From the UHGV virus genome UHGV-0716684: a DNA stretch of 44,840 nucleotides, one strand, 5' to 3'. Shown here one piece after another: positions 3,549 to 44,492 of the stretch. The translations under genes were made by a program, and so were the position numbers. Source of the stretch: a virus. The notes beneath the pieces were generated by a model. That model did no database searches, had not been told where the DNA came from, and saw nothing but the letters and a program-made list of their open reading frames with translations. Position 1 is the first letter of the stretch. Each line of letters starts with the position of its first letter.

Positions 3549-3549
3549 C

Positions 3550-6496: not shown

Positions 6497-6533
6497 CCAA
6501 TCTCTGTAATATTTAATCTTTACAAAAATGTTA

Positions 6534-7136: not shown

Positions 7137-7145
7137 GACAGAGGA

Positions 7146-13414: not shown

Positions 13415-13508
13415 GTACATCCCGCCCAATCCCCTTATATAATCCATTTAGACGCGTAGGGCGCGTCTGGTGCGCTCTGATGGTCAGACGCATATGCAAG
13501 GGGATTCT

Positions 13509-14021
13509 ATGAAGCTGAAACTCAAGCAGCCATCACCAGAGGTGGTGCAAGCTGCACATGAAGAAGCTGTTAGCGCAAACCGTCGCCGTAAACGACCGCG
13601 CGGTAAACAGAGCCTTTATCAATCATCCCGTAATTCCGCCGCGTTGTGGGACCCGGACTATTGTGACGAATTGATTCGTTTCTTCGACCGCACGTCGTGG
13701 GAGGCTATGCCGACCGGTGCGCACGGAGACTACAAAGCAGTCATTGCGGATAAACCGCCATCACTGGCTCGCTTCGCCTTACACATCGGTGTCACTATCC
13801 CGATTATTAAGCTGTGGCTGCGCGAGATTCCCTCATTTGCAGAAGCCTATGAAACGGCACAGGCGCTGGAAGAGGCGTATTTCACTGAGAATGGGGCCGC
13901 CGGTATCTCTGCTACGTTCGCCGCCGCTAAGCTGGGGCTGAATAAAACAGTTGTCGCCGAAGAAGTACGCGACGAGCCAATCAGTGAAGTAACAATTAAG
14001 GTGGTGTCCGGTGAACGTTAA
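13509..14021 (+). CDS. terminase small subunit
   Basis: HTH region SLARFALHIGVTIPIIKLWLREIPSFAEAYE typical of small terminase subunits; directly upstream of and overlapping the large subunit. Confidence 0.65.
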   Translation: MKLKLKQPSPEVVQAAHEEAVSANRRRKRPRGKQSLYQSSRNSAALWDPDYCDELIRFFDRTSWEAMPTGAHGDYKAVIADKPPSLARFALHIGVTIPIIKLWLREIPSFAEAYETAQALEEAYFTENGAAGISATFAAAKLGLNKTVVAEEVRDEPISEVTIKVVSGER

Positions 14022-15282
14022 TATCACGGCAACGGAACCTCAAGGCGCATTTCTTGGGATGCATTGCAAGTTCCCTGCGTTCGTGGCTGGCTTCGGCACC
14101 GGGAAATCAGAGGTTATGTGTAACTCCGCGCTACTGGACAGCATGGAGGGTGGCAGCGATTCTATCATCGCCATGTATGAGCCTACTTATGACCTGGTAC
14201 GCCTTATCCTTGCGCCCCGTATGGAAGAGAAGCTGACGGACTGGGGTATCCGGTACAAATACAATAAGTCCGACAACATAATCTATACGTCATCCGGTCA
14301 ATTTGGGGATTTTGTCCTGCGTACATTAGATAATCCAGCACGAATCGTTGGTTACGAGTCATTTCGTGCAAAAATCGACGAGTTGGATACCCTGAACATG
14401 GAACACGCGGAGCACGCATGGAACAAAGTCATCGCCCGTAACCGTCAGTTGCCGAGGACGTATAAACCTATTACGCCAAAACCTGCTAATACCGTTTCCG
14501 TGTTCACTACGCCGGAAGGATTCCGTTTCGTGCATGACCGCTGGGTTGTTAAAAAGAATCCTGGTTACGAGATGATTCAGGCGTCCACCCTGTCTAACCC
14601 GTTCCTGCCAGAAGATTATGTGCAGTCCTTACGAGATACCTACCCCGGGCAGTTGATTGATGCCTACATCAACGGCGAGTTCGTAAACCTCACGGCTGGG
14701 ACGGTCTACTACGCTTACGACCGCAGGAAAAACAGCAGTCGCGAAACAATCAAGCCTGGTGAGACTCTGTATATTGGGCAGGATTTTAACGTAGGCCATA
14801 TGGCGAGCACAGTCTACGTGCAACGCGGAAAGGTGTGGCACGCTGTCGCCGAGTTGGTTGATATGTTCGATACGCCGGATGTAGTGCGAGCCATAACGGA
14901 GCGCTGGAAAAGTAAGGGCCATTATATCGTTATGTACCCGGACGCCAGCGGCAAGAACCGTAAAAGCAACAACGCCAGCACCTCCGACATCGTCCAGCTA
15001 CAGCAGGCCGGTTTCGAAGTACGCGCTAAATCGACAAACCCACCGGTTAAAGACCGCGTATCTGCGATGAATAAGGCGCTTGAATCTGGTATGGTCATGA
15101 TTAACGAACAGGCTTGCCCGGTTACTGCTCGATGCCTGGAGCAGCAAGCCTACGACAAGAACGGCGAACCGGATAAATCAGGTGGTGTGGACCACCAGAA
15201 TGATGGAACCACATACCCTATCGCGTATGAAATGCCGATTCGCAAACCAGTTATTAACGTCCCGGTGACTTTCGCACTTTAA
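14011..15282 (+). CDS. terminase large subunit
   Basis: 423 aa; Walker A GFGTGKS near N-terminus; position before portal. Confidence 0.85.
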   Translation: MNVNITATEPQGAFLGMHCKFPAFVAGFGTGKSEVMCNSALLDSMEGGSDSIIAMYEPTYDLVRLILAPRMEEKLTDWGIRYKYNKSDNIIYTSSGQFGDFVLRTLDNPARIVGYESFRAKIDELDTLNMEHAEHAWNKVIARNRQLPRTYKPITPKPANTVSVFTTPEGFRFVHDRWVVKKNPGYEMIQASTLSNPFLPEDYVQSLRDTYPGQLIDAYINGEFVNLTAGTVYYAYDRRKNSSRETIKPGETLYIGQDFNVGHMASTVYVQRGKVWHAVAELVDMFDTPDVVRAITERWKSKGHYIVMYPDASGKNRKSNNASTSDIVQLQQAGFEVRAKSTNPPVKDRVSAMNKALESGMVMINEQACPVTARCLEQQAYDKNGEPDKSGGVDHQNDGTTYPIAYEMPIRKPVINVPVTFAL

Positions 15283-15294: not shown

Positions 15295-16770
15295 ATGTTA
15301 ACTATGAACGGTCAGAATCAGGGTGTTAAGACTAAACACCGGGAATGGCTGCATCACTTCAATAAATGGCAGAAGGTACGCCACGCGCTGGAAGGCGACC
15401 TTATCCGTTACCTGCGCAACGTCGGGAAGAACGAACCAGACCCGACCTACGCGGCACAGCGTCAGGAAGAATACGAGAACGGCGCTATCTGCTACAACTT
15501 TACTAAACGTACCCTGGCGGGGATGGTTGGGTCCGTGATGCGCAAAGACCCCGAGCAGATTATCCCGCCTGAACTGGAGTACCTGTTACGTAATGCCGAC
15601 GGCTCCGGTGTTGGTCTGTGGCAGCACGCGCAGGACACGCTGATGGAGATTGACTCGGTGGGCCGTGGTGGGTTGCTGGTTGACGCCCCGGAGACCGCCG
15701 CGGCAACGGCGGCAGAGCAGAACGCGGGGTTATTAAACCCGGTCATCGCTTTCTATACCGCAGAGAACATCATCAACTGGCGACTGACTCGCGTCGGTTC
15801 AGTTAACCGCGTGACGATGGTTGTATTGCGTGAGGTATGGGAATACTCAGAACCGGGCGCAGAGTTCGAAACAAAGTTCGGTGAGCAATACCGCGTTCTC
15901 GATTTGATTGACGGTCGCTACCGTCAGCGCATTTACCGCTTTGACGCAGAAGGTGGCGCACAGGGTGAAGTAATCGAAATCTTCCCGGAACTCGGCGAAC
16001 AGTTACGTGGCAAAATCCCGTTCACGTTCATTGGTGCAAGCAACAACGACGCTACTATCGACGATGCGCCTTTGCTGCCGTTGGCTGAGCTTAATATCGG
16101 ACATTTCCGTAACAGCGCAGACAATGAGGAATCCAGCTTCGTTGTAGGCCAGCCAACTCTGTTCATCGCCCCCGGTGAGAACATGAGCATGGAACAGTGG
16201 AAAGAAGCTAACCCTCACGGCGTGCGCATGGGGTCACGTTCAGGCCATAACATCGGCTACGGCGGCAATGCATTTCTTGTTCAGGCAGGAGAGAACAACC
16301 TCGCCAAACAGAATATGCTGGATAAAGAGAATCAGGCCATTCAGATTGGCGCGCAGCTTATCACCCCGACGCAGCAAATCACCGCCGAATCCGCCCGCCT
16401 GCAACGCGGCGCCGATACGTCAGTCATGGCAACAATCGCGCGTAACGTAAGCATGGCGTATACCGATGCATTGCGCTGGGTAGCGGCGATGCTAGGGTTG
16501 CGCGAAGACACAGAGATTGAATTCAAGCTGAACATGGAGTTCTTCCTACAACCGATGACAGCTCAGGACCGCGCCCAGTGGATGGCAGACATTAACGCTG
16601 GCTTGCTGCCCGCCACCGCTTACTATGCTGCGTTGCGCAAGGCGGGTGTAACTGACTGGAAGGATGAAGACATTCAGAACGCTATCGAGGATGCACCATT
16701 GCCGTTGGGGGCCGTTACTCAGGTGACGGGGGAGATTCCGCAGTCGGCGCAGCAGCAACAGCAGGAGTAA
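15295..16770 (+). CDS. portal protein
   Basis: 491 aa ORF directly after terminase large subunit; size and position typical. Confidence 0.75.
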   Translation: MLTMNGQNQGVKTKHREWLHHFNKWQKVRHALEGDLIRYLRNVGKNEPDPTYAAQRQEEYENGAICYNFTKRTLAGMVGSVMRKDPEQIIPPELEYLLRNADGSGVGLWQHAQDTLMEIDSVGRGGLLVDAPETAAATAAEQNAGLLNPVIAFYTAENIINWRLTRVGSVNRVTMVVLREVWEYSEPGAEFETKFGEQYRVLDLIDGRYRQRIYRFDAEGGAQGEVIEIFPELGEQLRGKIPFTFIGASNNDATIDDAPLLPLAELNIGHFRNSADNEESSFVVGQPTLFIAPGENMSMEQWKEANPHGVRMGSRSGHNIGYGGNAFLVQAGENNLAKQNMLDKENQAIQIGAQLITPTQQITAESARLQRGADTSVMATIARNVSMAYTDALRWVAAMLGLREDTEIEFKLNMEFFLQPMTAQDRAQWMADINAGLLPATAYYAALRKAGVTDWKDEDIQNAIEDAPLPLGAVTQVTGEIPQSAQQQQQE

Positions 16771-16799
16771 ATATTAAGGCCCCTATTGGGGCCTTAATC

Positions 16800-18212
16800 T
16801 CACTTATTCCATACCAATTTCTCTTGTCCGCTATCCCATATGCGGGATACACCTTCCGCAGCGTACCATTCCGACTGTGTAAGCCCCTCTGGCGCTTTGT
16901 TCCATTTTTGCCGTGATTCTGTTTTAGTCGCATTGTTTACGACGATGCGGAATCCACATCTCACAGAAGCCTTTTTAAACCCCGCTGATAGGTATGATTC
17001 TCCGGTAAATAAATCCCGGTCAGTGTAGGTAAAACCGTCGGTGATGCTATAACGGCGCACGGCATAGGCCCATAGCTTCGACAGCCCGCCTACCACCGAA
17101 CACGACGTAGCGTACCGCACAAGCTCCCATTCACCTTTTCTACACGTCAGCGTCATTACCGCAACAATCTTTTCTTCATAAACGAGGCTGATATACCTCG
17201 TCGAGTTACGGAATCCTTGAATGTGGTTCTCCTCCAGGAAACGCTCTGCACATATTTTGTTAATCTCTTTTACATGGCATTTGCGGGCGAAAACTCGCAA
17301 AGAAGAGACGCCGACGGAATGGCCGATTATTTTCTTTATTATTTCTTTTTTATGCAGCCATAGCTCATCCCTTATTGACAGGAGCCGGAACCCTCTTTCC
17401 TCAACGGCGACTCTTTTCTCCATGTGATACTTTCTCCCCTTCCCGGCAGCTTCACTGTGCCAGTACAGGCCGTTTATTTCTATCGCCAGATTATGTTGCG
17501 GTATTAAAATATCTATCTCTCTTGGGTGGATAAGACTTCTATCATTCCGATGATATTCCACCCCCATGCTATCGAGAAATTCACAGACTTCATCCTCCAC
17601 TTTACTACGCCCGAACGACGCGCACCGCGGGCACCCTCTACCCTGAAAAATGTTACCAAGCGTAGAGGCCCATTCATGGCCTTTTTGACACCTCAGTGTC
17701 GATGGCGCACGGCAGATATCCCCTGAATAAGACACCAGTTCAAAACCAGTGCCGCGTAACCTTTCCTCTATTTCTCCGATCTCGAGCCTTTTTCTGTTAG
17801 TGCTGCAATTCGGGCAATGACTTTTACCCCTTAAAATGTCGCTGCCGGTAGCGGACCAGACGAACCCGCATTTACATCTGAACGTTGATTTCCCACTTAC
17901 AGCACCTGCGTAATTAAGGCATTCAACCCCATTAGGCCACTCTGTTACTTTCGCCCGTTTTTCCGCAGCGTAGCATTGGGGGCAACCATGACCGTTTAGG
18001 ACGGTATTGGCCTTTGTCTCCCACACATGGCCACTACGGCAGCGGAATTTAGACTTAAGTTTAGAGTGGCCTGCATACTCAATTACTACTATACCCCGTG
18101 ACGCCAGTCTCAGGTTTACATCTTCTTCAGTTAAACGTCTGGACCCCATTAAAATACCCTCCGCTTCTTCTAGTATAAAGATTGTGTATATACATGTACC
18201 ACAGCAAGACAT
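16800..18212 (-). CDS. putative multi-domain homing-type endonuclease (zinc-ribbon repeats plus PD-(D/E)XK Vsr/DUF559-like nuclease motif)
   Basis: Repeated C..GH.W...G.GCP.C units; motif EIDILIPQHNLAIEINGLYWHSE; opposite strand inside the packaging/head module. Confidence 0.55.
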   Translation of the reverse strand: MSCCGTCIYTIFILEEAEGILMGSRRLTEEDVNLRLASRGIVVIEYAGHSKLKSKFRCRSGHVWETKANTVLNGHGCPQCYAAEKRAKVTEWPNGVECLNYAGAVSGKSTFRCKCGFVWSATGSDILRGKSHCPNCSTNRKRLEIGEIEERLRGTGFELVSYSGDICRAPSTLRCQKGHEWASTLGNIFQGRGCPRCASFGRSKVEDEVCEFLDSMGVEYHRNDRSLIHPREIDILIPQHNLAIEINGLYWHSEAAGKGRKYHMEKRVAVEERGFRLLSIRDELWLHKKEIIKKIIGHSVGVSSLRVFARKCHVKEINKICAERFLEENHIQGFRNSTRYISLVYEEKIVAVMTLTCRKGEWELVRYATSCSVVGGLSKLWAYAVRRYSITDGFTYTDRDLFTGESYLSAGFKKASVRCGFRIVVNNATKTESRQKWNKAPEGLTQSEWYAAEGVSRIWDSGQEKLVWNK

Positions 18213-18252
18213 CGCACCGCAATAAGAAAAAATTCCCTGAGATATTATTTTT

Positions 18253-19329
18253 ATGCGTTACACTGTCGATACTACAGGAGGGCTTATGAGCTTACTTACA
18301 TCTCTAATTAGCCACCAGATATGGCTGCAACGTACTGCATCCGGTGAGGTGAAAGACCTAGCACCGTTCATTCAGGAGATGCGGGACGAAATCAAACGGC
18401 AGGTGCTGTTATTCGGCGATGATGGCCGCAGCACCGCCCGGCTGAATAAACTGTTACGCGACCTTGAAGAAGCACTGGCTGGACTTACAGTTGACTGGCA
18501 AACAAAGCTGACAGAAGACCTTAAGGAACTGGCGGCATATGAGGCTGAGTGGAACGTAAAGACACTTACCACCAACGTTAACGCGGAATTTGTTACACCT
18601 ACCGCCGAGCAGGTGTGGGCCGCTGCCGAGTTTCAACCTCTGTCGCTAAGTGACAAGCCCGTTGACTTCACCAAGCTGATGTCAGGCTGGGGTGAAGCGG
18701 AGGTCGCGCGCCTTGTAACTGGCGTTAAGATGGGCTTTGTGCAAGGCCAAACCACACGGCAGATTGTTAAAGAAGTAGTTGGTAAAGGCGGCCTGGCTGA
18801 CGTATCAGAGAAACACGCTGCTACAGTAATCCGCACCGCGCTGTCCCACGTGTCCAACGAAGCCCGTAATGAGACGTACCGCCAGAACGACGACATTATC
18901 GAGAAATATGAGTGGGTGTCTACTCTTGATTCTAGGACCTCAGCCGTTTGCAAGGCCAGAGATGGGATGACGTGGGAAATCGGTAAAGGGCCGATGCCCC
19001 CCGCCCATCCGAACTGCCGGTCGTGCACGGCTCCGGTAATCAGTTCGGAGTTCGACTTCCTGGATAAAGGCGCAAAACGCGCGGCTAAGGGTGCGGACGG
19101 AGGTACTCAGGTAAGCGCAGACACCACTTACTACGAGTTCCTGAAACAACAACCGGCATGGTTTCAGGACCAGGCTCTAGGCCCGGTGCGGGGTAAGATT
19201 TTCCGTAACAGCGGTATATCGCCGGAAGAGTTTCGCGTAATATCTGTAGATGGTTTCGGGAATCCGCTCACGCTTAAGCAGATGGCGGAACTCGATAAAC
19301 GTGTTGCTGATTATCTGAAAGGGGAATAA
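18253..19329 (+). CDS. head morphogenesis protein (SPP1 gp7 / Mu F-like minor head protein)
   Basis: 358 aa; conserved PMPPAHPNCRSC region; position after portal. Confidence 0.75.
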   Translation: MRYTVDTTGGLMSLLTSLISHQIWLQRTASGEVKDLAPFIQEMRDEIKRQVLLFGDDGRSTARLNKLLRDLEEALAGLTVDWQTKLTEDLKELAAYEAEWNVKTLTTNVNAEFVTPTAEQVWAAAEFQPLSLSDKPVDFTKLMSGWGEAEVARLVTGVKMGFVQGQTTRQIVKEVVGKGGLADVSEKHAATVIRTALSHVSNEARNETYRQNDDIIEKYEWVSTLDSRTSAVCKARDGMTWEIGKGPMPPAHPNCRSCTAPVISSEFDFLDKGAKRAAKGADGGTQVSADTTYYEFLKQQPAWFQDQALGPVRGKIFRNSGISPEEFRVISVDGFGNPLTLKQMAELDKRVADYLKGE

Positions 19330-19793: not shown

Positions 19794-19820
19794 AAGGCCC
19801 CGAAAGGGGCCTTAATTTTA
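19794..19820. terminator. conserved terminator hairpin aaggccccgaaaggggcctt
   Basis: Perfect 8 bp stem, GAAA loop, T-rich flank; same hairpin at 27155 and 39396. Confidence 0.6.
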
Positions 19821-20357
19821 ATAAGCTAACCAAGAACCTCTTTCTGTGAACATCAATTTATTTCCTTTTAAGAGATTCAGAACCGCAGGGATAACTTGTA
19901 TGTTTTCTGCGACGTGCAGCCCTGAGACAGTTTTAGCCCGCAACGGCAGCATGTGGTCGATATGCCATAAGAAACCTGTTTCACCCGCTCGCAGTTGACA
20001 TAGCTCCTGCGCTTCTTCGAATACTAATAGGTCAAATTCATCATTCCTGATGTTTATACTCCTGGCTCTTTTTGCCGTTTTATACTTCAACCTTTGGGCT
20101 TTCCTGGCGGTTTTGTTTTTCTTACGGTACTCCGCATCAATTTCGGCTAATCGGTCTTTATTTTCTTGCCTCCATTTTGCGTTTTTAGCCGCCCAAGAAA
20201 CAGCGTTTCGTTCTCGGTACGATTTTTGTATCTCTTTAGTGCACTCATAGCACCCGGTGCGAACATGCCTTTTCGCAACATGCCCGCGTTTACACGGTTT
20301 GCCAGTGAAGTAATAATCATCCCCCGCGGCTATGGCTTCTGAACGCTTAGTGAGCAT
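19818..20357 (-). CDS. HNH-type endonuclease
   Basis: 179 aa; CKRGH..C.EC zinc-binding N-terminus and WHIDHMLPL...N HNH-like core. Confidence 0.6.
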   Translation of the reverse strand: MLTKRSEAIAAGDDYYFTGKPCKRGHVAKRHVRTGCYECTKEIQKSYRERNAVSWAAKNAKWRQENKDRLAEIDAEYRKKNKTARKAQRLKYKTAKRARSINIRNDEFDLLVFEEAQELCQLRAGETGFLWHIDHMLPLRAKTVSGLHVAENIQVIPAVLNLLKGNKLMFTERGSWLAY

Positions 20358-20382
20358 AAAACCCCCTGTTTAAGTTAACCGA

Positions 20383-20411
20383 ATAGTACCCTATTATATT
20401 GGTGTGTGCAA
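20383..20411 (-). promoter_or_regulatory. promoter TTGCAC-N17-TACTAT with GAATAG-N4-CTATT palindrome
   Basis: Reverse complement TTGCACacaccaatataatagggTACTATtc; upstream of the HNH gene. Confidence 0.5.
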
Positions 20412-20686
20412 ACTATTTGTTTACATATTCCAGTTATTCCACTCAATTGTAAATGTTGGAATAAACTATTCGAATAGTTGACTTTTCACTAAAAATATGA
20501 TAAGCTCCACCTGAGCTTGTGAAGTATGAACAAGCGACCGCGGCGCGGGCAGGTAACGGAGCCGGATGTTAAGTCCGAGTGTAGTTACGCTGACGCGTTC
20601 GGAAGGGCCGTACTCTATTGCTTGTGTAAAAAGTAACTGGTTTACTGAGATTACGCCGTTTCTATGTTTAAATGATAAGGACTAGC

Positions 20687-27154: not shown

Positions 27155-27179
27155 AAGGCCCCGAAAGGGGCCTTTTCTT
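27155..27179. terminator. conserved bidirectional terminator hairpin aaggccccgaaaggggcctt
   Basis: T-rich tract on both strands; convergent gene ends. Confidence 0.65.
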
Positions 27180-27396
27180 ACTCACTTTTGAACGGCATTT
27201 CGTAGAAGTTAGTTAACTGGCCTCGGTCCCTTCGTTCTGTCATTTCTTTAGAGGCCTCTTCCTTACTACTAACGGCATAAATATCAACCCACTCGTCCCA
27301 TTCTTCGTCGTATACTCGGATTACATATATTGTTTTCATAATATTTTCACTCATCAATATTGCTTCGGTATTCCCGTAACTTCTCCAGACTTTCAA
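27178..27396 (-). CDS. hypothetical protein (accessory island)
   Basis: 72 aa ORF on opposite strand within tail module. Confidence 0.45.
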   Translation of the reverse strand: MKVWRSYGNTEAILMSENIMKTIYVIRVYDEEWDEWVDIYAVSSKEEASKEMTERRDRGQLTNFYEMPFKSE

Positions 27397-27577
27397 TTGC
27401 TTCTGCTAAGTCGGTTCCGGTGTCCTTGTGTCCGCGCAAGCCCATGCACAATAACTTCTTTAACGCATGCTGTAGCGCCGGGTCACGGATATCGAAAGCA
27501 CGGAGCACATCATAAACGTCTACTGTCATGGTGCTGCCGTGAGTGTTTGTCATTGTGCGGTTGTATTTTGAAGTCAT
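27347..27577 (-). CDS. hypothetical protein (accessory island)
   Basis: 76 aa ORF. Confidence 0.45.
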   Translation of the reverse strand: MTSKYNRTMTNTHGSTMTVDVYDVLRAFDIRDPALQHALKKLLCMGLRGHKDTGTDLAEAIESLEKLREYRSNIDE

Positions 27578-27586
27578 CTCTACACC

Positions 27587-28087
27587 CTATTTATAACCGT
27601 TGTTGAATGTTGTCAGTCCATGATTTATGTGAAACCTATTAGCCACAGACATGTAAATTCTTTCAGCGAAAGCGTCCTCTATTCTGTCAAATGTTTTACT
27701 AATCTGCTTACCGTTGACAACGGCATAAGCTCTCCACTTAGTTTTTCCTTTCCGCGCCACACCCGTAACTCCAGAGGTATTATCTTTGCGCCTTTTCACG
27801 TTAACCATGTTGTCCCTTCTAGATTTGCATGACAGGTTTTCAATTCTGTCGTCACAGGTATCATGGTTAGTATGGTCTATGACAAATCCTTTTGGAATCT
27901 TACCTGAGAACATCTCATACACCACCCTCGACCTTTTAAACTTACGGTTACCAAACATGACATACCAATAGCCGTTTTTACACAAACTCCCGGCCACATC
28001 ACCTATATTCACATCGTTACGGCGACATGATTTGACTTTCCAGTATAGGACGCCATTTTTGTAGCTAAAAACCTCACTCCAATCCAT
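27587..28087 (-). CDS. HNH homing endonuclease with AP2 DNA-binding domain
   Basis: HNH_3 motif VIDHTNHDTCDDRIENLSCKSRRDN; AP2-like SGVTGVARKGKTKWRAYAVVNGKQISKTFDRIEDA. Confidence 0.75.
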   Translation of the reverse strand: MDWSEVFSYKNGVLYWKVKSCRRNDVNIGDVAGSLCKNGYWYVMFGNRKFKRSRVVYEMFSGKIPKGFVIDHTNHDTCDDRIENLSCKSRRDNMVNVKRRKDNTSGVTGVARKGKTKWRAYAVVNGKQISKTFDRIEDAFAERIYMSVANRFHINHGLTTFNNGYK

Positions 28088-28102
28088 ACTTTCACCTATA
28101 TT

Positions 28103-29257
28103 TTAGTATGTCGATTTTGGGTTTATGTCTCGCAGCATTTCGACAGGTATACTTATGCGGGACACCTCCCCGTAACGTTTGTGGTATGTAATCACATTTG
28201 CGCTTCTACCTGAATAATAGCCGCCCTTACTAGAATACTCATCTTTAGCCGCTAATGTCTGGTGTTGCTCAACAATTAGCAGATTAGTCTCTTTAACCGC
28301 CCTGTGATGGAGGTGCCCCGTATGGACATATGTGAACTTACACCGCCCGTACATCTCCCGGTACTTACCGATTATAGCCTGCTCTACCTTAGCAAAGTTA
28401 GAACAATGCCCGTGATGTGCTGAAATCATACAATCCCCGAACTTGTACGCATAATACGGTGACACCTCCCGGTTAACCTCGACGCGAGGCTCATTTGTGT
28501 ATACCTCGTAGAACATCTCCCGGAGCCACAGAGAAGAACTAAGGTCGTGGTTACCTTCACAGATAAGAAGTTTAACCTTCTTGTGTTTTCGCAAGCACAG
28601 TGAGACAGCCAGCTTGATAACCTTAATGGCCGTGCGTATCATTTTAAACAGGCGACTATCCGCTGAAAGAATATGACCGCTCATAGGGGTCATTGCCTTC
28701 ATGCCGTCGTAGTGCATTTGGTCCCCTAAGAAGTTAATGATACATTCACCACTCTGTGGACTCATACAAACCGCACTGTTGAACCAGTCAACCGCGAGAG
28801 ATTCCGCGATTGTGGTGTCGTAATCATCCCCGCCTTCTTCTTGACACGCCAACATCCCTATGTGATGGTCTGTTATTGTGTAAAGATTTAATAAGTCGTC
28901 ATCTGTCCCATTTTTGGCCAAAGTGACTGGCTTATACTTGGGTAAATCTTTTTTCATCTCGTCCACAACGGCTTTCATTAACTCGACCTGACGTTCCGCA
29001 TCGGTGTCGGTCTTAACCCATTGCAGTTTAGTGTTGCCTAACTCATCAACCAGAGACGATGTACCCTTAATCTTGTAGCCGTCCGGCACAAGGTGGCTAA
29101 CGTCACGCCCGTGGCCTACGCCTTTCTTCGCTAGTTTCGCTTTACGGATACGAATAACGCGGTCTGAGATGCCGTATTTACGAGCAATGTCGATATTCTT
29201 CATCCCAGCGTTCAATTCTTCCTGTAACTGTTCGTCGGTTATTTTCTTCTGGGCCAT
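28103..29257 (-). CDS. HTH-fused calcineurin-like metallophosphoesterase
   Basis: N-terminal HTH (IDIARKYGISDRVI); phosphoesterase motifs TDHH, GDQMHYDG, GNHD, HTGHLHH. Confidence 0.65.
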   Translation of the reverse strand: MAQKKITDEQLQEELNAGMKNIDIARKYGISDRVIRIRKAKLAKKGVGHGRDVSHLVPDGYKIKGTSSLVDELGNTKLQWVKTDTDAERQVELMKAVVDEMKKDLPKYKPVTLAKNGTDDDLLNLYTITDHHIGMLACQEEGGDDYDTTIAESLAVDWFNSAVCMSPQSGECIINFLGDQMHYDGMKAMTPMSGHILSADSRLFKMIRTAIKVIKLAVSLCLRKHKKVKLLICEGNHDLSSSLWLREMFYEVYTNEPRVEVNREVSPYYAYKFGDCMISAHHGHCSNFAKVEQAIIGKYREMYGRCKFTYVHTGHLHHRAVKETNLLIVEQHQTLAAKDEYSSKGGYYSGRSANVITYHKRYGEVSRISIPVEMLRDINPKSTY

Positions 29258-29322: not shown

Positions 29323-29649
29323 CTATTTACTTTCTGCGCCTATTGACCATCCGGTTGTAACCATTTGCAAACGAGTGGCTAACAGTAGGCTGCTGAAAGT
29401 GGGGCTGTTAACATCTACAGACTCAACAACAAGGGATGTCATCAATTCAAGACCAAGGCCAGACCCGCCAGCGCGCACGGCAGCATTACATTCGCGAATA
29501 GCAGCGGTTTTAAACGCACTAACGGCAGACGGAGGGGCTGAATCAAGCACCCCGGAAGTTACTAAAGGGGTTTCACTATATACTTGCTCACACTGGGACC
29601 CTACCGCGCAAAAAGAAATAAGACCCATGGCTATGATTAATTTACGCAT
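29323..29649 (-). CDS. small secreted/periplasmic protein
   Basis: 108 aa; N-terminal signal peptide MRKLIIAMGLISFCAVG; first gene downstream of promoter at 29690-29718. Confidence 0.5.
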   Translation of the reverse strand: MRKLIIAMGLISFCAVGSQCEQVYSETPLVTSGVLDSAPPSAVSAFKTAAIRECNAAVRAGGSGLGLELMTSLVVESVDVNSPTFSSLLLATRLQMVTTGWSIGAESK

Positions 29650-39395: not shown

Positions 39396-39419
39396 AAGGC
39401 CCCGAAAGGGGCCTTTTCT
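39396..39419. terminator. conserved bidirectional terminator hairpin aaggccccgaaaggggcctt
   Basis: Identical to hairpins at 19794 and 27155; between convergent genes. Confidence 0.65.
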
Positions 39420-39557
39420 CTACTCTTCTGATAACTTCTCCAGTACAAACGCCAGTTGCGCATTAGCGGCATCTCTCTGCTGGCGTAGACGTAGAACCTC
39501 TTCTTCGAGTTCCTTGATACGTTTTTGCAATGCCGGAATCGGGGCTATGATGTTCAT
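39420..39557 (-). CDS. small coiled-coil protein (45 aa)
   Basis: Hand-translated MNIIAPIPALQKRIKELEEEVLRLRQQ...; ATGA overlap with helicase stop. Confidence 0.35.
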   Translation of the reverse strand: MNIIAPIPALQKRIKELEEEVLRLRQQRDAANAQLAFVLEKLSEE

Positions 39558-40978
39558 TTCTTACCTCGTCTCTTCATGTAATTAAGCAATTCTTCCTGCA
39601 CCGATTTCTTCTCGTCTGTACGCGCGGCAACAACCTCGTCCAGCGTGTCTTTAGCAACGATGTGATAGAGGAACACCGGCCGCTCGCGCCCTGCCTGTTT
39701 CTGGCGGACCGGGCCTATACGCTCGACAACCTGCAAATAGTGCTCAAGGTTCCAGCCTTGCGAGATGAATGCCAGATGATGCCCGCCGTCCTGTAAATTC
39801 AAACCATGCCCGGCTGACGCAGGATGCACGCATAAGATTTCGATTTCCCCTCGGTTCCATGCTTCCATCTGCTTATTGCCCTTAGCGCCTTTGGCAAACG
39901 CCTGGGCCTGCGGGAATCGCTTAAGGATGCGCTCCAGTTCGTGCTTAAACTGATAGGCCACCAATAACGGAGCGCCCTGTAACTCCTCAACAATCGACTC
40001 AAGCGCATCCAGTTTCGTGTCGTGAACTTTCTCCCAGTCTTTGGTTGCTTCTCCGTCTGGCCCCGATACATACACGGCACCGGATGCAATCTGTAGGCAC
40101 TTCGACGTCTTCGCCGCAGCGTTAGCCGCTTCCACTTCCCCGCTCTCCAGTTCTGCGAATAGCTTCTCCTCCATATCGATGTACGCCTGACGCGCCTTCT
40201 TCGGTAGGTCGATTTCAACCGGTACAATAATCGGCGCTTCACAACCAAACCACTCGGCCGCGTCAATCGTGAGACTAATGTCTTTCATCTTCTGATGAAT
40301 CTCATTATCTGCGCCAGGGCGGGCGTGGTATTCACGTGCCATCGCCGATTTGCCCTTCTGTACCGAGTTAAACCAGCGGTCTGTGAATGCTGTGTATGAA
40401 GAACCGAGGCGCTCTCCAGCGTCGATAAACCAGTTCTGACCCCACAAGTCCTTAAGGCCGTTCGGTGACGGTGTACCGGTAAGGTTAATGAAACGCTTAA
40501 CCTTACCGAACGCCACTTTGCTTAACGCCTTTGCTCTCTTACTACCGCCAGAACGACTACGGAATGATTTCAACTTCGTGCTTTCATCGGCGACGATAAC
40601 CGTAAAAGGCCAGTCGTCTTTGCCGTAGTAGTCGATAAGCCACTCGATAACTTCGTAGTTGGTGCACACCACGTTAGCGTCTGACTCCAGCGCCGCGATG
40701 CGGCGCTTCTCTGAACCGGTCGCATCGACGACACGCAGACAAGGGAAGTTCCATTTCTCTTGTTCTGCAGGCCATGTACCTGACGCAACACGCAACGGCG
40801 CGAGGATTAACACGCGGTCATCATCATTAAGTTGGCCGTTGCGGAACAGTCTGTTTAACGCCCACAGTACGCTGCCAGTCTTACCCGCACCCATGCTCGC
40901 CCATATGTTACAGCGATGGTGCCGCAGCATGAACGAGGTCATAAGCTTCTGGTACTCGCGCCTTTGAAACTTACTCAT
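39554..40978 (-). CDS. superfamily II DNA helicase (SNF2/RAD54-like)
   Basis: 474 aa; Walker A GAGKTG, DEST box (VADESTKLK), motif III LTGTP. Confidence 0.8.
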   Translation of the reverse strand: MSKFQRREYQKLMTSFMLRHHRCNIWASMGAGKTGSVLWALNRLFRNGQLNDDDRVLILAPLRVASGTWPAEQEKWNFPCLRVVDATGSEKRRIAALESDANVVCTNYEVIEWLIDYYGKDDWPFTVIVADESTKLKSFRSRSGGSKRAKALSKVAFGKVKRFINLTGTPSPNGLKDLWGQNWFIDAGERLGSSYTAFTDRWFNSVQKGKSAMAREYHARPGADNEIHQKMKDISLTIDAAEWFGCEAPIIVPVEIDLPKKARQAYIDMEEKLFAELESGEVEAANAAAKTSKCLQIASGAVYVSGPDGEATKDWEKVHDTKLDALESIVEELQGAPLLVAYQFKHELERILKRFPQAQAFAKGAKGNKQMEAWNRGEIEILCVHPASAGHGLNLQDGGHHLAFISQGWNLEHYLQVVERIGPVRQKQAGRERPVFLYHIVAKDTLDEVVAARTDEKKSVQEELLNYMKRRGKK

Positions 40979-41465
40979 TGGGTCGTATTCCTTTGTCTAA
41001 TGTTTCAAGTGCCGATACCCTGGCGGCTATTGCTTCTTCTCTTGTAGAGTAATAGCCTAAATGCTTCTTTATTCCGTCAATAGTCATATACGCGGCCCAT
41101 TTATTATGCGACTCTCGCCACCTAACGCCAGGAAAGCCGCTTTTATTACTCGACCTAATTTTCTGCCATCCAGCTTTTGCGACGTTACCTTGTTGTGTCA
41201 CTAACTGTAGATTTTCCAATCGGTTATCATCGTACACGCCATTTATGTGGTCAATTTGCATTCCTTCTGGAATCTTGCCGTTGTGCATCTCCCAGACTAT
41301 TCTATGCGCTTGGTATATTTTACCTTTGAACTTAATACGCCTATGACCCTTGTTTACCGAGCTTCCTGCTGTACTGCCTACCGATACTCTCGGCCCCGGT
41401 CTTACTCGCCAAATGAGGGTGCCGTTGTCGTAGGTGAATATCCTTCCCCATGCTATTTCACACAT
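40971..41465 (-). CDS. HNH homing endonuclease with AP2 DNA-binding domain (paralog of 27587-28087)
   Basis: HNH_3 motif QIDHINGVYDDNRLENLQLVTQQGN; AP2-like SGFPGVRWRESHNKWAAYMTIDGIKKHLGYY. Confidence 0.75.
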   Translation of the reverse strand: MCEIAWGRIFTYDNGTLIWRVRPGPRVSVGSTAGSSVNKGHRRIKFKGKIYQAHRIVWEMHNGKIPEGMQIDHINGVYDDNRLENLQLVTQQGNVAKAGWQKIRSSNKSGFPGVRWRESHNKWAAYMTIDGIKKHLGYYSTREEAIAARVSALETLDKGIRPNE

Positions 41466-41644
41466 AATACTAATTCCTTACGCCCAAACGCTGTAACGTT
41501 ACCAGTTACATCTTCGATAACCAGTTTACCGTTCGACTCGACGAACACCGTATCAACGGCAACAGGCTGGCGTGTCTTAACGTTGAAAATCATGTCGCCA
41601 GGTACGATGTCACGTGCTGGTTTGCGGTCATATTCGTGTTTCAT
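41453..41644 (-). CDS. hypothetical protein
   Basis: 63 aa ORF downstream of promoter at 41677-41705. Confidence 0.45.
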   Translation of the reverse strand: MKHEYDRKPARDIVPGDMIFNVKTRQPVAVDTVFVESNGKLVIEDVTGNVTAFGRKELVLCVK

Positions 41645-42190: not shown

Positions 42191-42322
42191 TCATTCCAGC
42201 ACCCACAGATAAATTGCGATGAACATACCAAATATGGCAACCATCATGCCGTATTGACCCTCGTGACAGTAGACACCGGCGGCGAATCCCGCCAGTACCG
42301 CGATACTCAGTTTACTTGGCAT
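42191..42322 (-). CDS. tiny hydrophobic membrane protein (44 aa)
   Basis: Hand-translated MPSKLSIAVLAGFAAGVYCHEGQYGMMVAIFGMFIAIYLWVLE; overlaps the DNA polymerase 3-prime end. Confidence 0.3.
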   Translation of the reverse strand: MPSKLSIAVLAGFAAGVYCHEGQYGMMVAIFGMFIAIYLWVLE

Positions 42323-44492
42323 AACGCTTCATCTCCGCACCTTCTGCTACAAGAGGGAACCCCTCCGCCCATTCAGGTAATTCGCACATCAACCGCTCAA
42401 GCTCTGCAACATTGTATTCCGGTAAATCTGGTGTCTCGCAGATAATCTCATCGTGAACATGAAGCACAATCGGGTAGCCGTTTGCTTCGACGTTCAGCAG
42501 CGCATTAGCCAGCAAATCACGGCACAGCGCCTGTGTGCAGTTTTCCACGAGTTTACCGGAATATGTGTACTGGAAGCCCCACTGACGGGTTAACTGATTT
42601 TCTCCCTGGTACTTTATGCGCACGTTAGTAGACACCTTCCCATCTTCGTCTGTCTCTTTCGATACGCTCAACCCTACGCCTGGGTAAGACATAACGCGGC
42701 CCGACGGCAACGTCATGCGCAGCCACCAACCGGCGACTTTGTTGCTGTTGTTGTCTGTCTCTACGTTGCGCGAAAACTTAACTCCCCGCGGCCCCGCGGT
42801 GAACTCTTTGCCCGGATTGCGGATAGCCGCCATAGCCGCATCTTCAATATCACGCCAGAAAGCTACTGTTTCCGGGTGTGACTCACGCCACATACGCTTG
42901 ATAGCGTCGCAGGTACGCCACACTTTCTTATCAAGAATATAAGATGGTCGGTCATCTTTTTCACCAGGACGTGGCGGTCGCTTGGCTTCCTGAATACGCG
43001 CCCACTCATATCCACGTGCGGTAGCAGCCCAGATGTGGTCGGGGAAAGTCCCGTCCATTGTTTTTGCCATATCAACAAGGTCAAGGCCGAGGTTTTTGGC
43101 GAACTGTACGAATGCGCCGACACCACCCGCGTAGCCAAGTCCCAGTTCGCAGGCCTTACCAATCTGGCGTAAGTCTTTACGTTCTTTCTTAATGTAATCC
43201 GACTCCATGCCAAACATCTTGCCTGCGGTTACGCAGTAAATATCCAGCCCGGCACGGAACGTATCAAGCGCGGTTTCTTCGCCAGCCAGCCACGCCAAAC
43301 CGCGGCCTTCAACGTTAGAGTAATCGGCGACGACAAACTTATGCCCGGCTTCAGGTATAATGCAGCTGCGCACCGTCGATGCCGTTAGTTTGGCTACATC
43401 GAAACGGCGGTGCGCACGGCCTTTAAGTAACGCAGAAATGCCTTTATCCAGTTCGTCGTCGTGATAGTACCCGCGAGCCAGGTTCTGCGGCTGGAAGCCT
43501 TTACCCGCAAATCGTAACGTACGTTTAGCTCCACCATACTGGATGCAACCGCGACGGCGGTCGTCAGACGAGCGGCCTAACAGCAGCGGGTTATATTTCG
43601 TTGACGCAGTGGATGCCGCCCCGAGGCGCATTTCGATAATCGTGCGGGCGTCGTCCGGTAAATCATCATCCGCCAACAGGTCATTTAGCGTCGACTTCTG
43701 CGCGTTGTGGATTCGGTGCGCTGGCGCAAGTTCACGCAGAATAGGAAGGAAGTCTTTACCAGTAAGCGAGCCGCCGTATTTACGTTGGGCTTCTTCCTGC
43801 AACTGCGCTTTGTGTTTCTCTACCGCTTCAATCGCGGCTTCCGCCAACGCAACGTCGACCTTAAACCCGCGGTCGTTGATTAACTGGTCCAGTTCCAGTA
43901 CACGGTCCTCAAACTCCGAGTTACCCCACCGCGGTAGCTTATGGAACACTTCACGCATCGCGGTGATGTCGCTAACTGCGTACTTGATGAACAGCGCCCA
44001 CTCGTCAGGGTGCGTTTCGGCGGTATAGCGGCGAATTTTGTAGTTCTTCGGTGTCGGTTTAGAGAAACGCTGAATCAGCGCCTTACCGCGTTTGTCTTTT
44101 GCGTTGTCAGCAGATACGCCCAGCACTTCGCACAGCGCATCGAGCGAACCCGGCAGCGCGTGACGAAACGCCCAAATCATCGTATCAATGGTGTTGCTTA
44201 CCGGAATGTCAAAACCCCAGCAGTGTTTCATGACGAGCCTATCGAACATTGAGCCGTTGTGCCACACCATCTTAACGCGGCTGTTCGGCTTAACCAGGCG
44301 GCGTAACGCGCGATACAAATCGCCCGGCATATCGCTGCCGTCGGTGCAATCCCATACCTGTACAGGCTGGTCGTTAAAAGCATATGTACAGATTAGCACT
44401 TCGGTAGTTGGATGTTCGGCGTAAGCGTAGGAACCGACTTTCTTCAAATCGGCTTCGGAGAATGTTTCAAAGTCTAAGAACAGGTAACTCAT
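42312..44492 (-). CDS. family A DNA polymerase with 3-prime to 5-prime exonuclease domain
   Basis: 726 aa; Exo I DFETFS, motif A DYSNVEGRGLAWL, motif B KACELGLGYAGG, motif C HVHDEIICE. Confidence 0.9.
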   Translation of the reverse strand: MSYLFLDFETFSEADLKKVGSYAYAEHPTTEVLICTYAFNDQPVQVWDCTDGSDMPGDLYRALRRLVKPNSRVKMVWHNGSMFDRLVMKHCWGFDIPVSNTIDTMIWAFRHALPGSLDALCEVLGVSADNAKDKRGKALIQRFSKPTPKNYKIRRYTAETHPDEWALFIKYAVSDITAMREVFHKLPRWGNSEFEDRVLELDQLINDRGFKVDVALAEAAIEAVEKHKAQLQEEAQRKYGGSLTGKDFLPILRELAPAHRIHNAQKSTLNDLLADDDLPDDARTIIEMRLGAASTASTKYNPLLLGRSSDDRRRGCIQYGGAKRTLRFAGKGFQPQNLARGYYHDDELDKGISALLKGRAHRRFDVAKLTASTVRSCIIPEAGHKFVVADYSNVEGRGLAWLAGEETALDTFRAGLDIYCVTAGKMFGMESDYIKKERKDLRQIGKACELGLGYAGGVGAFVQFAKNLGLDLVDMAKTMDGTFPDHIWAATARGYEWARIQEAKRPPRPGEKDDRPSYILDKKVWRTCDAIKRMWRESHPETVAFWRDIEDAAMAAIRNPGKEFTAGPRGVKFSRNVETDNNSNKVAGWWLRMTLPSGRVMSYPGVGLSVSKETDEDGKVSTNVRIKYQGENQLTRQWGFQYTYSGKLVENCTQALCRDLLANALLNVEANGYPIVLHVHDEIICETPDLPEYNVAELERLMCELPEWAEGFPLVAEGAEMKRYAK

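What the first reader, a model, noticed from the sequence alone, without database searches (positions are those of the whole stretch)
40971..41465. Two paralogous HNH-AP2 homing endonucleases in different modules
The products of 27587-28087 and 40971-41465 share N-terminal YKNG.LYW-type segments, the IDH.N.....DNR.ENL HNH_3 core and an AP2-type DNA-binding domain. Together with the HNH gene at 19818-20357 and the large endonuclease at 16800-18212, the genome carries four putative homing endonucleases, an unusually high load for about 45 kb.
Basis: partly seen in the sequence, partly recalled or inferred. Interest (0 to 1): 0.5.

Follow-up and report, generated by a model that had tools for sequence, protein, structure and literature searches.

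The report
Two HNH-AP2 homing endonuclease genes
This coliphage genome carries two related but separately acquired selfish nuclease genes of a well-known phage family (HNH cutter plus AP2 DNA-binding domain), plus two other mobile nuclease genes, which is ordinary for this group of phages.

Summary

The window is a mosaic Kagunavirus-like genome (Guernseyvirinae). All four nuclease genes named in the finding are clean insertions relative to its closest relatives.

HNH-A sits exactly at the stop/start junction between a 63-aa ORF and the SNF2 helicase gene. It is 96.6% identical to the copy in Salmonella Jerseyviruses, while the flanks are about 81-87% identical and of Kagunavirus type up to the junction. 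This is the signature of a gene that moved alone.

HNH-B forms one sharp edge of a 1.2-kb tract shared at 94-98% with Jerseyviruses. Decayed copies exist in relatives.

Three points in the finding need correction. The two genes are not each other's closest relatives, so they are separate acquisitions. The 470-aa protein is Hef-like with a Vsr/EDxHD-type nuclease, not HNH. A load of four is not unusual: Xanthomonas phages of 44 kb carry 6-8. Near-identical genes are already annotated in GenBank. Homing itself is inferred, not shown. Known kind, low interest.

The parts
40971..41465 (-). HNH-A: freestanding HNH_3 (I-HmuI-like) plus AP2 endonuclease gene, 164 aa
27587..28087 (-). HNH-B: second HNH_3 plus AP2-fold endonuclease gene, 166 aa (equivalent to SEP1_gp22 of Jerseyviruses)
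41453..41473 (-). Upstream junction of HNH-A: recoded last seven codons of the 63-aa ORF, containing the HNH-A start codon
   Evidence: Empty sites read CTGGTTCTGGTGGCGAAATGA. HEG-carrying genomes (window, Spp11) read TTAGTATTATGTGTGAAATAG, with the same ELVL..K* ending. The HNH-A ATG lies 13 nt before that stop.
40971..40978 (-). Downstream junction of HNH-A: its stop codon overlaps the helicase start (ATGAGTAA). An AAGGAA Shine-Dalgarno-like motif for the helicase lies inside the HEG 3' end.
   Evidence: Sequence.
41453..41644 (-). Conserved 63-aa ORF (phrog_4879) upstream of the insertion slot
   Evidence: phrog_4879 6e-46. In relatives with an empty slot it overlaps the helicase start at ATGA.
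39554..40978 (-). SNF2-family helicase gene. Its 5' junction is the insertion slot, and in relatives the gene also carries an intein and a downstream HNH-AP2 gene.
   Evidence: Pfam SNF2-rel_dom. Slot survey. Intein with LAGLIDADG domain in the TUMS_E4 helicase. Downstream HNH-AP2 gene in Jersey gp35 and L011.
28103..29257 (-). S-type DNA-repair exonuclease gene (phrog_704), linked to HNH-B
   Evidence: phrog_704 1e-150. The first ~96 codons are nearly identical to the K-type allele and the rest is visibly diverged, roughly 40% identity judged by eye from the alignment. Every S-type genome inspected has HNH-B or a remnant of it; no K-type genome does.
27600..28850 (-). High-identity tract shared with Jerseyvirus 'buks' (94-98%): HNH-B plus the 3' two-thirds of the S-type exonuclease gene (boundaries approximate)
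   Evidence: 100-nt identity profile. There is a sharp drop to 71-87% at the 3' end of HNH-B and a gradual drop to 83-86% beyond about 28900.
19818..20357 (-). 179-aa putative His-Me nuclease (phrog_1035 'endonuclease VII'), inserted antisense in the late operon
   Evidence: phrog_1035 9e-32. No Pfam or NCBIfam hit. Segment 19814-20425 is absent from XY1, G and VIPECOTH07. 26 records cover at least 80% of the inserted segment; the listed full-length matches are 89-93% identical.
16800..18212 (-). 470-aa Hef-like homing endonuclease: treble-clef zinc fingers plus a Vsr/EDxHD-type nuclease domain
   Evidence: Pfam DUF4379 8e-13, MTES_1575 and Vsr weak. phrog_559 and phrog_3339. I-Bth0305I (3r3p) E=1.5e-3. 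44% identity to Jersey_03 'Hef-like', which sits at another locus. Segment 16759-18284 is absent from XY1, G and VIPECOTH07. No close DNA relative in the phage collection.
16776..16795 (.). Palindromic terminator hairpin AAGGCCCC-N4-GGGGCCTT abutting the 3' end of the 470-aa gene
19794..19813 (.). Same palindromic terminator hairpin abutting the 3' end of the 179-aa gene

Best explanation
HNH-A and HNH-B are two freestanding homing endonuclease genes (HEGs) of the known I-HmuI-like HNH_3 ('HNN') plus AP2 family. They were acquired independently by a mosaic Kagunavirus-like phage.

Inferred mechanism. During mixed infection with a relative that lacks the gene, the AP2 domain and the N-terminal beta-sheet bind a long asymmetric site at or near the empty insertion point. 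The D-H...N...N His-Me finger then nicks or cuts the DNA; I-HmuI itself is a nickase. Recombinational repair from the HEG-carrying genome copies the gene, and sometimes adjacent DNA, into the cut genome.

HNH-A is inserted precisely at the ATGA stop/start overlap between a 63-aa ORF and the SNF2 helicase. It is translationally coupled on both sides, so helicase expression is preserved. Its insertion splits the presumed target, and the upstream junction is recoded; either could make the carrier immune.

HNH-B is linked to the 'S-type' allele of the adjacent repair exonuclease. It probably drives replacement of the 'K-type' allele, in the manner of intronless homing or localized marker exclusion.

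Shown here: family, fold, intact catalytic residues, purifying selection, insertion polymorphism, and transfer between genera without flanks. Inferred: cleavage activity, target sites and homing.
For: Family and fold:
- HNH_3 is above the gathering score for both proteins.
- The I-HmuI alignment covers the catalytic D-H and the Asn residues.
- D72, H73 and N85 are invariant across 65 homologues, N94 is nearly invariant, and both window proteins keep all four.

Selection: 14 synonymous to 3 non-synonymous codon differences for A, and 11 to 2 for B.

Mobility of A:
- It is present full-length in only 8 of roughly 500 Guernseyvirinae records, and in metagenome contigs.
- The slot is empty in XY1, G AB-2017 and VIPECOTH07, with a clean junction.
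- A is 96.6% identical to the Spp11 copy, against 87.0% for the helicase and 80.6% further upstream.
- Informative sites show that the window's flanks are Kagunavirus-type right up to the junction.
- The same slot holds a different HNH-AP2 gene (28% identity) in TUMS_E4, a frameshifted copy of that gene in SS3e, or a C5-methylase in Jersey, K1ind3 and UTI-CM001.

Mobility and decay of B:
- A 94-98% tract is shared with Jerseyviruses and ends sharply at the 3' end of B.
- Spp11 keeps a 15-codon remnant, produced by deletion between AACGGC repeats.
- XY1 keeps the first 60 codons of B, joined at a 10-nt microhomology to codon ~246 of a K-type exonuclease. This shows an S-allele-plus-HEG block entering a K-type genome.

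Literature: the HNH_3/I-HmuI group carrying AP2 domains is a recognised homing endonuclease group (PMC5714182). It is also described as the HNN-AP2 HEGs of Xanthomonas phages (PMC2248197) and the IPA-HNH HEGs (PMC10448857).
Against: - No cleavage, target site or super-Mendelian inheritance was tested.
- The insertion polymorphisms could arise from ordinary recombination at permissive junctions. The slot of A also accepts a methylase, which is not a nuclease.
- HNH-B departs from the family at four near-invariant positions (H54, N81, R87, G137). It is very widespread at one fixed position in Jerseyviruses, which fits a domesticated or inactive protein as well as an active HEG.
- AP2 is not supported at Pfam's own threshold.
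- Co-conversion tracts next to A are essentially absent. That is unusual for classical double-strand-break homing, although it is compatible with short tracts or nick-initiated events.
Confidence: 0.75

Rival explanations
1. One or both proteins, HNH-B in particular, are domesticated. They would be retained for a phage function such as sequence-specific DNA binding or regulation through the AP2 domain, or as a nuclease partner of the adjacent SbcD-like exonuclease, and would no longer home.
For: - HNH-B is fixed at one position in about 158 records at 97-98% identity and is under purifying selection.
- It has lost near-invariant family residues H54, N81, R87 and G137.
- It is always linked to the S-type exonuclease allele.
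- AP2 domains from HEGs have been co-opted as regulators: plant AP2/ERF factors and phage CasPR anti-CRISPR repressors.
Against: - The catalytic D-H...N...N core is intact in both proteins.
- HNH-B is dispensable. It is deleted in Spp11, truncated in XY1, and absent from all K-type genomes inspected.
- It marks the sharp edge of a recombinant tract, as active phage nuclease genes do (PMC10448857).
Confidence: 0.12
2. The genes are ordinary accessory cargo, shuffled by general or illegitimate recombination at permissive junctions such as ATGA overlaps and terminator hairpins. Their nuclease activity would serve another purpose, for example attacking host or competitor DNA, and would not catalyse their own spread.
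For: - The slot of HNH-A also holds a C5-methylase in many relatives.
- The XY1 and Spp11 variants arose by microhomology-mediated events.
- Sites C and D abut an identical palindromic terminator that recurs four times.
- No co-conversion tract flanks HNH-A.
Against: - Two distantly related HNH-AP2 genes independently occupy exactly the same junction.
- HNH-A is found at that same junction in two genera with near-identical sequence in diverged backbones.
- The family is the classic homing family typified by I-HmuI.
Confidence: 0.1
3. They are terminase-associated HNH proteins needed for DNA packaging or cos cleavage.
For: Only the presence of an HNH domain in a siphophage. That some HNH proteins assist terminases is established knowledge (Kala et al. 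2014, recalled from memory, not checked here).
Against: - Neither gene is near the terminase genes at about 13470-15282.
- Both are absent from fully viable close relatives.
- Both belong to the HNH_3/I-HmuI group with an AP2 domain, not to the small terminase-adjacent HNH type.
Confidence: 0.01

Closest known systems
I-HmuI (Bacillus phage SPO1 intron-encoded HNH homing endonuclease, PDB 1U3E)
   Different: I-HmuI is intron-encoded, and its C-terminal DNA-binding part is helical (NUMOD/HTH type). The window proteins are freestanding and carry an AP2 domain instead. Whether they nick or cut both strands was not tested.
HNN-AP2 freestanding endonucleases of Xanthomonas phages Xp10, OP1 and Xop411, and the 'IPA-HNH' HEGs of ICP1-like and other phages
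   Same: Same architecture: an N-terminal HNN domain without Cys dyads, the DNR / NL / N boxes, and a C-terminal AP2 domain. They also occur as several dispersed copies per ~45-kb genome, show degeneration series, and lie next to essential replication or structural genes (PMC2248197; PMC10448857). The annotation of Jersey gp35 itself cites the Xanthomonas phage protein.
   Different: Different phage lineage (Guernseyvirinae). Sequence identity to those proteins was not measured here.
Annotated orthologues in GenBank: Spp11 QIG57333.1 and JNS02 'HNH endonuclease' for A; wksl3 AFO12384.1, SEP1_gp22 and NBSal007 'HNH homing endonuclease' for B
   Same: 96.6% (A) and 97.4% (B) DNA identity, with the same flanking genes and the same junctions.
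   Different: Those are Salmonella Jerseyviruses. Here both genes sit together in an Escherichia Kagunavirus-type backbone. None of them has been characterised experimentally, as far as the searched literature shows.
T4 SegF / SegG intronless homing (localized marker exclusion), and the Hef/SegH replacements in T-even phages
   Same: A freestanding HEG lies next to a diverged allele of a DNA-metabolism gene and carries that allele with it. HNH-B together with the S-type exonuclease tract and the XY1 chimera look like products of such events. The 470-aa gene is annotated Hef-like in relatives.
   Different: Seg proteins are GIY-YIG enzymes. The comparison is with a mechanism recalled from the literature (Belle et al. 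2002; Sandegren et al. 2005), not tested here.

Membership tests
HNH_3 / I-HmuI-like His-Me finger endonucleases (Pfam PF13392; His-Me group 2) | Profile match above the curated threshold | tested here: met
   75.7 bits (A) and 58.2 bits (B) against a cut-off of 24.8.
HNH_3 / I-HmuI-like His-Me finger endonucleases (Pfam PF13392; His-Me group 2) | Catalytic Asp-His general-base pair and the two Asn residues of the HNN motif | tested here: met
   D72, H73 and N85 are invariant and N94 nearly invariant in 65 homologues; both window proteins keep all four. They align with I-HmuI ...VDHKDGNKDNN...NLRWVTQKIN. B has DDR in place of DNR and lacks H54, R87 and G137.
HNH_3 / I-HmuI-like His-Me finger endonucleases (Pfam PF13392; His-Me group 2) | Beta-beta-alpha-metal fold with an N-terminal DNA-binding sheet, as in 1U3E | tested here: met
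HNH_3 / I-HmuI-like His-Me finger endonucleases (Pfam PF13392; His-Me group 2) | Metal-dependent site-specific nicking or cleavage of DNA | not testable with these tools
   Requires biochemistry.
AP2 DNA-binding domain (Pfam PF00847) | Profile match above the curated threshold | tested here: not met
   A scores 24.5-25.6 bits (E about 1e-5), below the cut-off of 33.3. B gives no hit even with its C-terminus alone at E<=10. Several homologues carry a precomputed PF00847 hit.
AP2 DNA-binding domain (Pfam PF00847) | Three-stranded antiparallel sheet packed on one helix, superposable on AP2/ERF domains | tested here: met
Freestanding homing endonuclease gene (functional class) | Presence/absence polymorphism at one precise site among close relatives, outside any intron or intein | tested here: met
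   For A, 40980-41473 is missing from XY1, G AB-2017 and VIPECOTH07, and the flanking genes abut at ATGA. For B, relatives show presence, an internal deletion and a truncation.
Freestanding homing endonuclease gene (functional class) | Horizontal movement independent of the backbone: the gene is more similar than its flanks | tested here: met
   A is 96.6% identical against 87.0% and 80.6% for the flanks, and the flanks are typed as Kagunavirus. B lies in a 94-98% tract with a sharp edge at the gene's end.
Freestanding homing endonuclease gene (functional class) | The endonuclease cleaves the HEG-less allele and is over-transmitted in mixed infection | not testable with these tools
   Needs in vitro cleavage assays and phage crosses.
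Terminase-associated HNH packaging factors | Gene adjacent to the terminase/portal genes and conserved in all members of the lineage | tested here: not met
   Both genes are far from the terminase genes and are absent from viable close relatives.
EDxHD / Vsr-like homing endonucleases (I-Bth0305I, Hef-like), for the 470-aa protein | Vsr-like nuclease domain related to I-Bth0305I, with homology to annotated Hef-like proteins | tested here: inconclusive
   3r3p E=1.5e-3 over aa 201-284. Pfam Vsr and MTES_1575 and the TIGR vsr model all score below their cut-offs. 44% identity over 462 aa to Jersey_03 'Hef-like'. phrog_3339 'homing endonuclease' 2e-75.
HNH / endonuclease VII-like, for the 179-aa protein | Profile or structural match to a His-Me finger family | tested here: inconclusive
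   Only phrog_1035 'endonuclease VII' at 9e-32. No Pfam, NCBIfam or PDB sequence hit. A pattern HIDHMLPL...GLHVAENIQ...LNLLKGNK is visible in the sequence.

The most novel reading that the evidence does not exclude
The 5' junction of the SNF2 helicase gene may be a contested homing site in Guernseyvirinae, and the occupants may interact.

What is documented: at least two distantly related HNH-AP2 HEGs (28% identity) colonised this junction independently, a C5-methylase also occupies it, a LAGLIDADG intein sits in the helicase P-loop, and a further HNH-AP2 gene lies just downstream of the helicase.

What is speculative: the methylase or the recoded ORF end could act as immunity against HNH-A cleavage. 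HNH-B could actively drive replacement of the K-type repair-exonuclease allele by the S-type allele across the Escherichia/Salmonella phage boundary. If so, these nucleases would be the agents that set mosaic boundaries between the two genera.
Probability: 0.25. Interest if true: 0.45.

Novelty: already known. Interest (0 to 1): 0.2.

Why it matters
The practical value is in annotation and engineering. These four genes (2.9 kb, 6.6% of the genome) are dispensable selfish cargo. Their positions mark the points where Kagunavirus and Jerseyvirus genomes exchange DNA, which is relevant for therapeutic phages of E. coli and Salmonella.

The precise empty and occupied junctions, the decayed copies in Spp11, XY1 and SS3e, and the several alternative occupants of one slot provide a compact natural series for studying the invasion, fixation and decay cycle of HNH-AP2 homing genes. 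They also give defined substrates for testing cleavage specificity. Nothing here challenges current understanding.

Tried and rejected
- Sequence detection of AP2 in HNH-B failed. Pfam on the isolated C-terminus at E<=10 gave nothing, and NCBIfam gave nothing for either HNH protein. Fold comparison was needed to settle the question.
- I tried to confirm an HNH domain in the 179-aa protein with Pfam (whole protein and halves), NCBIfam and PDB sequence search.
- I looked for further homing-type genes in the window-specific segments (ORFs at 5967-6257, 6254-6550, 6978-7274, 8610-9170, 29323-29649 and 27178-27396). None was found.
- Jersey_05 and the Spp11 216-aa ORF at the portal / head-morphogenesis site turned out to be amidase-like, not a relative of the 470-aa gene.
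- Promoter and terminator scans around the four genes gave counts no higher than shuffled sequence, so no expression claim rests on them.
- I rejected the idea that A and B arose by duplication within this genome.
- I rejected the terminase-helper role (see rival explanations).
- I looked for a co-conversion tract next to HNH-A and found essentially none.
Full report
**What the window is**

Megablast of both halves of the window and of the 39-43 kb region hits several hundred Guernseyvirinae siphophages. The best matches are Escherichia Kagunaviruses. vB_EcoS_XY1 covers 78% of the left half at 96.6% identity. K1ind2 and K1ind3 match at about 91%, and VIPECOTH07 at 94%. No record covers 80% or more of the query in one place, so the window is a mosaic Kagunavirus-like genome of about 45 kb.

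**Check of the observation**

The 164-aa product of 40971-41465 is called HNH-A here, and the 166-aa product of 27587-28087 is called HNH-B. They align over 149 residues with 36% identity, E=1e-28.

- Both exceed the Pfam HNH_3 gathering score: 75.7 and 58.2 bits against 24.8.
- Both fall in phrog_99 'HNH endonuclease'.
- HNH-A matches I-HmuI (PDB 1U3E) by sequence. Its D72-H73, N85 and N94 align with the catalytic and structural residues of I-HmuI.
- In an alignment of 65 homologues, D72, H73 and N85 are invariant and N94 is nearly invariant. Both window proteins keep all four.
- HNH-B departs from the family at the near-invariant positions H54, N81 (DNR becomes DDR), R87 and G137.

The AP2 claim is weak by sequence. 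HNH-A scores 24.5 bits, below the cut-off of 33.3. HNH-B gives no hit even when its C-terminus is searched alone.

**Are they paralogues in the sense of a duplication?**

No. Among the homologues collected with HNH-A as query, HNH-B ranks 56th for A, and A ranks 16th for B. Each has relatives at 40-48% identity. Each also has near-identical DNA copies in other phages:

- HNH-A occurs full-length in only eight records, all Salmonella Jerseyviruses, at 94-97% identity. It also occurs in metagenome contigs.
- HNH-B occurs in about 158 records at 97-98% identity. It is annotated there as SEP1_gp22 or 'HNH homing endonuclease'.

They are two members of one family that were acquired separately.

**Insertion anatomy of HNH-A**

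BLAST of the window against whole genomes of XY1, G AB-2017 and VIPECOTH07 leaves 40980-41473 unmatched, with clean edges.

In those genomes a conserved 63-aa ORF (phrog_4879) ends in ...GTTCTGGTGGCGAAATGA. The ATG of that ATGA is the start codon of the SNF2 helicase.

In the window, and in Jerseyvirus Spp11, the HNH gene sits exactly between these two genes:

- Its ATG lies 13 nt before the stop of the 63-aa ORF.
- The last seven codons of that ORF are recoded (TTAGTATTATGTGTGAAATAG) while keeping the ELVL..K ending.
- Its stop codon overlaps the helicase start (ATGAGTAA).
- An AAGGAA motif inside the HEG's 3' end precedes the helicase ATG.

The element is therefore embedded so that expression of the essential helicase is preserved.

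Against Spp11, the HNH gene is 96.6% identical. The helicase is 87.0% identical and the region further upstream 80.6%. At sites that distinguish HEG-less Kagunaviruses from Spp11, the window carries the Kagunavirus state right up to both junctions.

The gene has thus moved between Escherichia-phage and Salmonella-phage backbones essentially alone and into the identical site. Codon differences are 14 synonymous to 3 non-synonymous, so the protein is under purifying selection.

**The slot is contested**

A survey with the empty-site sequence and inspection of selected records show the following occupants:

- The slot is empty in many Guernseyvirinae.
- It holds a C5-cytosine methylase in Jersey, K1ind3 and UTI-CM001.
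- It holds HNH-A in the window and eight Jerseyviruses.
- It holds a different HNH_3-AP2 gene, only 28% identical to HNH-A, in TUMS_E4. This gene is frameshifted in SS3e.

The helicase gene itself carries a Hint/LAGLIDADG intein near its N-terminus in TUMS_E4. Other records are annotated the same way. A further HNH-AP2 gene lies immediately downstream of the helicase in phage Jersey (gp35) and in a metagenome contig that also has HNH-A upstream.

**Anatomy of HNH-B**

HNH-B follows, on the same strand and with its own ribosome-binding site, a 384-aa DNA-repair exonuclease (phrog_704).

This exonuclease exists in two alleles. Their first ~96 codons are nearly identical, and the remainder is visibly diverged, roughly 40% identity judged by eye from the alignment.

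- The 'S-type' allele is found in the window, XY1, Spp11, buks and wksl3.
- The 'K-type' allele is found in G AB-2017, VIPECOTH07 and Jersey.

Every S-type genome inspected has HNH-B or a remnant of it, and no K-type genome has it.

Against Jerseyvirus buks, the window is 94-98% identical from about 27600 to 28800. This tract covers HNH-B plus the 3' two-thirds of the S-type gene. Identity drops sharply to 71-87% exactly at the 3' end of HNH-B, and more gradually to 83-86% near codon ~100 of the exonuclease.

Two decayed copies exist:

- Spp11 keeps only 15 codons, the result of a deletion between AACGGC direct repeats.
- XY1 keeps the first 60 codons, joined at a 10-nt microhomology (TGAGATGTTC) to codon ~246 of a K-type exonuclease. 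XY1 also has a complete S-type gene upstream.

The XY1 arrangement looks like the scar of an S-allele-plus-HEG block entering a K-type genome. HNH-B differs from wksl3 and buks at 11 synonymous and 2 non-synonymous codons.

**The other two genes**

Segments 16759-18284 and 19814-20425 are also absent from XY1, G AB-2017 and VIPECOTH07. Both genes are antisense to the late operon. Each lies immediately 3' of a copy of a palindromic terminator, AAGGCCCC-N4-GGGGCCTT. This hairpin occurs four times in the window, where none is expected by chance.

The 470-aa protein:
- It has treble-clef zinc fingers (DUF4379) and a Vsr/MTES_1575-like domain.
- It matches I-Bth0305I (3R3P) at E=1.5e-3.
- It is 44% identical to Jersey_03, 'Hef-like homing endonuclease', which sits at a different locus.
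- It has no close DNA relative in the phage collection.
- It is therefore a homing-type nuclease, but not an HNH enzyme.

The 179-aa protein falls in phrog_1035 ('endonuclease VII'), and 26 records cover at least 80% of the inserted segment, the listed full-length matches being 89-93% identical. No Pfam, NCBIfam or PDB sequence hit confirms a His-Me domain. Only a DH...N...N pattern is visible by eye.

**Mechanism**

The best-supported reading is that HNH-A and HNH-B are freestanding homing endonuclease genes. The steps, by analogy with I-HmuI and other phage HEGs, are as follows:

1. In a mixed infection, the AP2 domain and the N-terminal sheet bind a long site at or near the empty junction.
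2. The His-Me finger nicks or cuts the DNA.
3. Repair from the HEG-carrying genome copies the gene into the cut genome.

For HNH-A, the insertion splits the presumed target, and the recoded ORF end may add immunity. For HNH-B, the linked S-type allele and the sharp tract edge suggest allele replacement of the intronless-homing kind.

What is shown: family, fold, catalytic residues, selection, insertion polymorphism, transfer between genera, and decay series. What is inferred: cleavage, target identity and over-transmission.

The main rivals are domestication (chiefly for HNH-B, given its deviant residues and wide fixation) and passive shuffling at permissive junctions (the slot also takes a methylase, and no co-conversion tract flanks HNH-A). 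A terminase-helper role is excluded by position and dispensability.

**Comparison with what is known**

- The HNH_3/I-HmuI group with AP2 modules is a recognised homing endonuclease group (PMC5714182; that paper cites Magnani et al. 2004).
- 'HNN-AP2' genes occur at 6-8 copies in the ~44-kb Xanthomonas phages Xp10, OP1 and Xop411, with the same degeneration series (PMC2248197).
- 'IPA-HNH' HEGs were catalogued in 240 phage genomes and shown to sit next to essential genes and at recombination boundaries (PMC10448857).
- Homing endonucleases and inteins are already noted as typical of Jerseyviruses (PMC8425127).

A load of four (2.9 kb, 6.6% of the genome) is at the upper end of the few Guernseyvirinae genomes inspected here. 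Those carry zero to three or four such elements. It is not unusual for phages in general.

**Verdict**

The genes are near-identical to ones already annotated in public phage genomes and belong to a well-described family. Interest is low.

The modestly interesting by-products are:
- the exact, expression-preserving junction of HNH-A;
- the multiple independent occupants of the helicase 5' slot;
- the XY1 and Spp11 scars of HNH-B.

Noticed in passing
window 16776-16795, 19794-19813, 27155-27174, 39396-39415: A 20-nt palindromic terminator hairpin, AAGGCCCC-N4-GGGGCCTT, occurs four times where none is expected by chance. The sites inspected lie where oppositely oriented genes meet. Three copies are identical (loop GAAA). 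Two of the inserted nuclease genes abut it directly.
   Followed up: partly
L004 (phage XY1, MN927225.1) 10632-11192: The ORF annotated 'calcineurin-like phosphoesterase' is a chimera. The first 60 codons of HNH-B are joined, at the 10-nt microhomology TGAGATGTTC, to codon ~246 onward of a K-type repair exonuclease. A complete S-type exonuclease gene lies just upstream.
   Followed up: yes
L006 (phage Spp11, MN722429.1) about 11620-11675: The apparently empty HNH-B site is a 15-codon remnant (MDWSEVFSYKNGYK*). It was left by a deletion between AACGGC direct repeats inside the gene.
   Followed up: yes
L013 (TUMS_E4) 2689-3186 and 3183-5648; L014 (SS3e) 1689-2190: The same slot upstream of the helicase holds a different HNH_3-AP2 gene (28% identity to HNH-A). 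Its first codons (MSKFNRR) mimic the helicase start (MSKF.RR). In SS3e this gene is frameshifted. The TUMS_E4 helicase carries a Hint/LAGLIDADG intein beginning near residue 34.
   Followed up: partly
L011 (ERZ507891 NODE_348, 42.6 kb) 3001-5406; L010 (phage Jersey) 26433-28339: In some relatives the SNF2 helicase gene is flanked by HNH-AP2 genes. L011 has HNH-A upstream and a second, 165-aa HNH_3 gene downstream. Jersey has gp35 downstream and a methylase upstream.
   Followed up: partly
window 42312-44492; L006 37382-40480: The DNA polymerase of Spp11 is annotated as intein-containing (1032 aa), whereas the window's polymerase is 726 aa and intein-less. This is another mobile-element polymorphism in the same module.
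   Followed up: no
window 27178-28969 versus L007 30894-32775 and L005: The window lacks the polynucleotide kinase and dNMP kinase genes that follow the exonuclease in K-type Kagunaviruses. In their place it has HNH-B plus two small ORFs of 76 aa and 72 aa. The 76-aa product matches only the C-terminal part of phrog_2452 (positions 150-220 of 235), so it may be a gene fragment.
   Followed up: no
window 18253-18290: The head-morphogenesis gene probably starts at ATG 18286 (MSLLTS..., preceded by AGGAGGG), as in relatives. It probably does not start at 18253, as the mechanical ORF list gives. The sequence between them belongs to the inserted segment.
   Followed up: partly
L004 5247-5897; L007 26392-27042: XY1 and VIPECOTH07 carry a 216-aa gene between the tape-measure and minor-tail genes, on the opposite strand. 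It is annotated as an HNH endonuclease (phrog_953) in VIPECOTH07, and the XY1 copy gave a weak AP2 hit. The window has no gene at that position.
   Followed up: no
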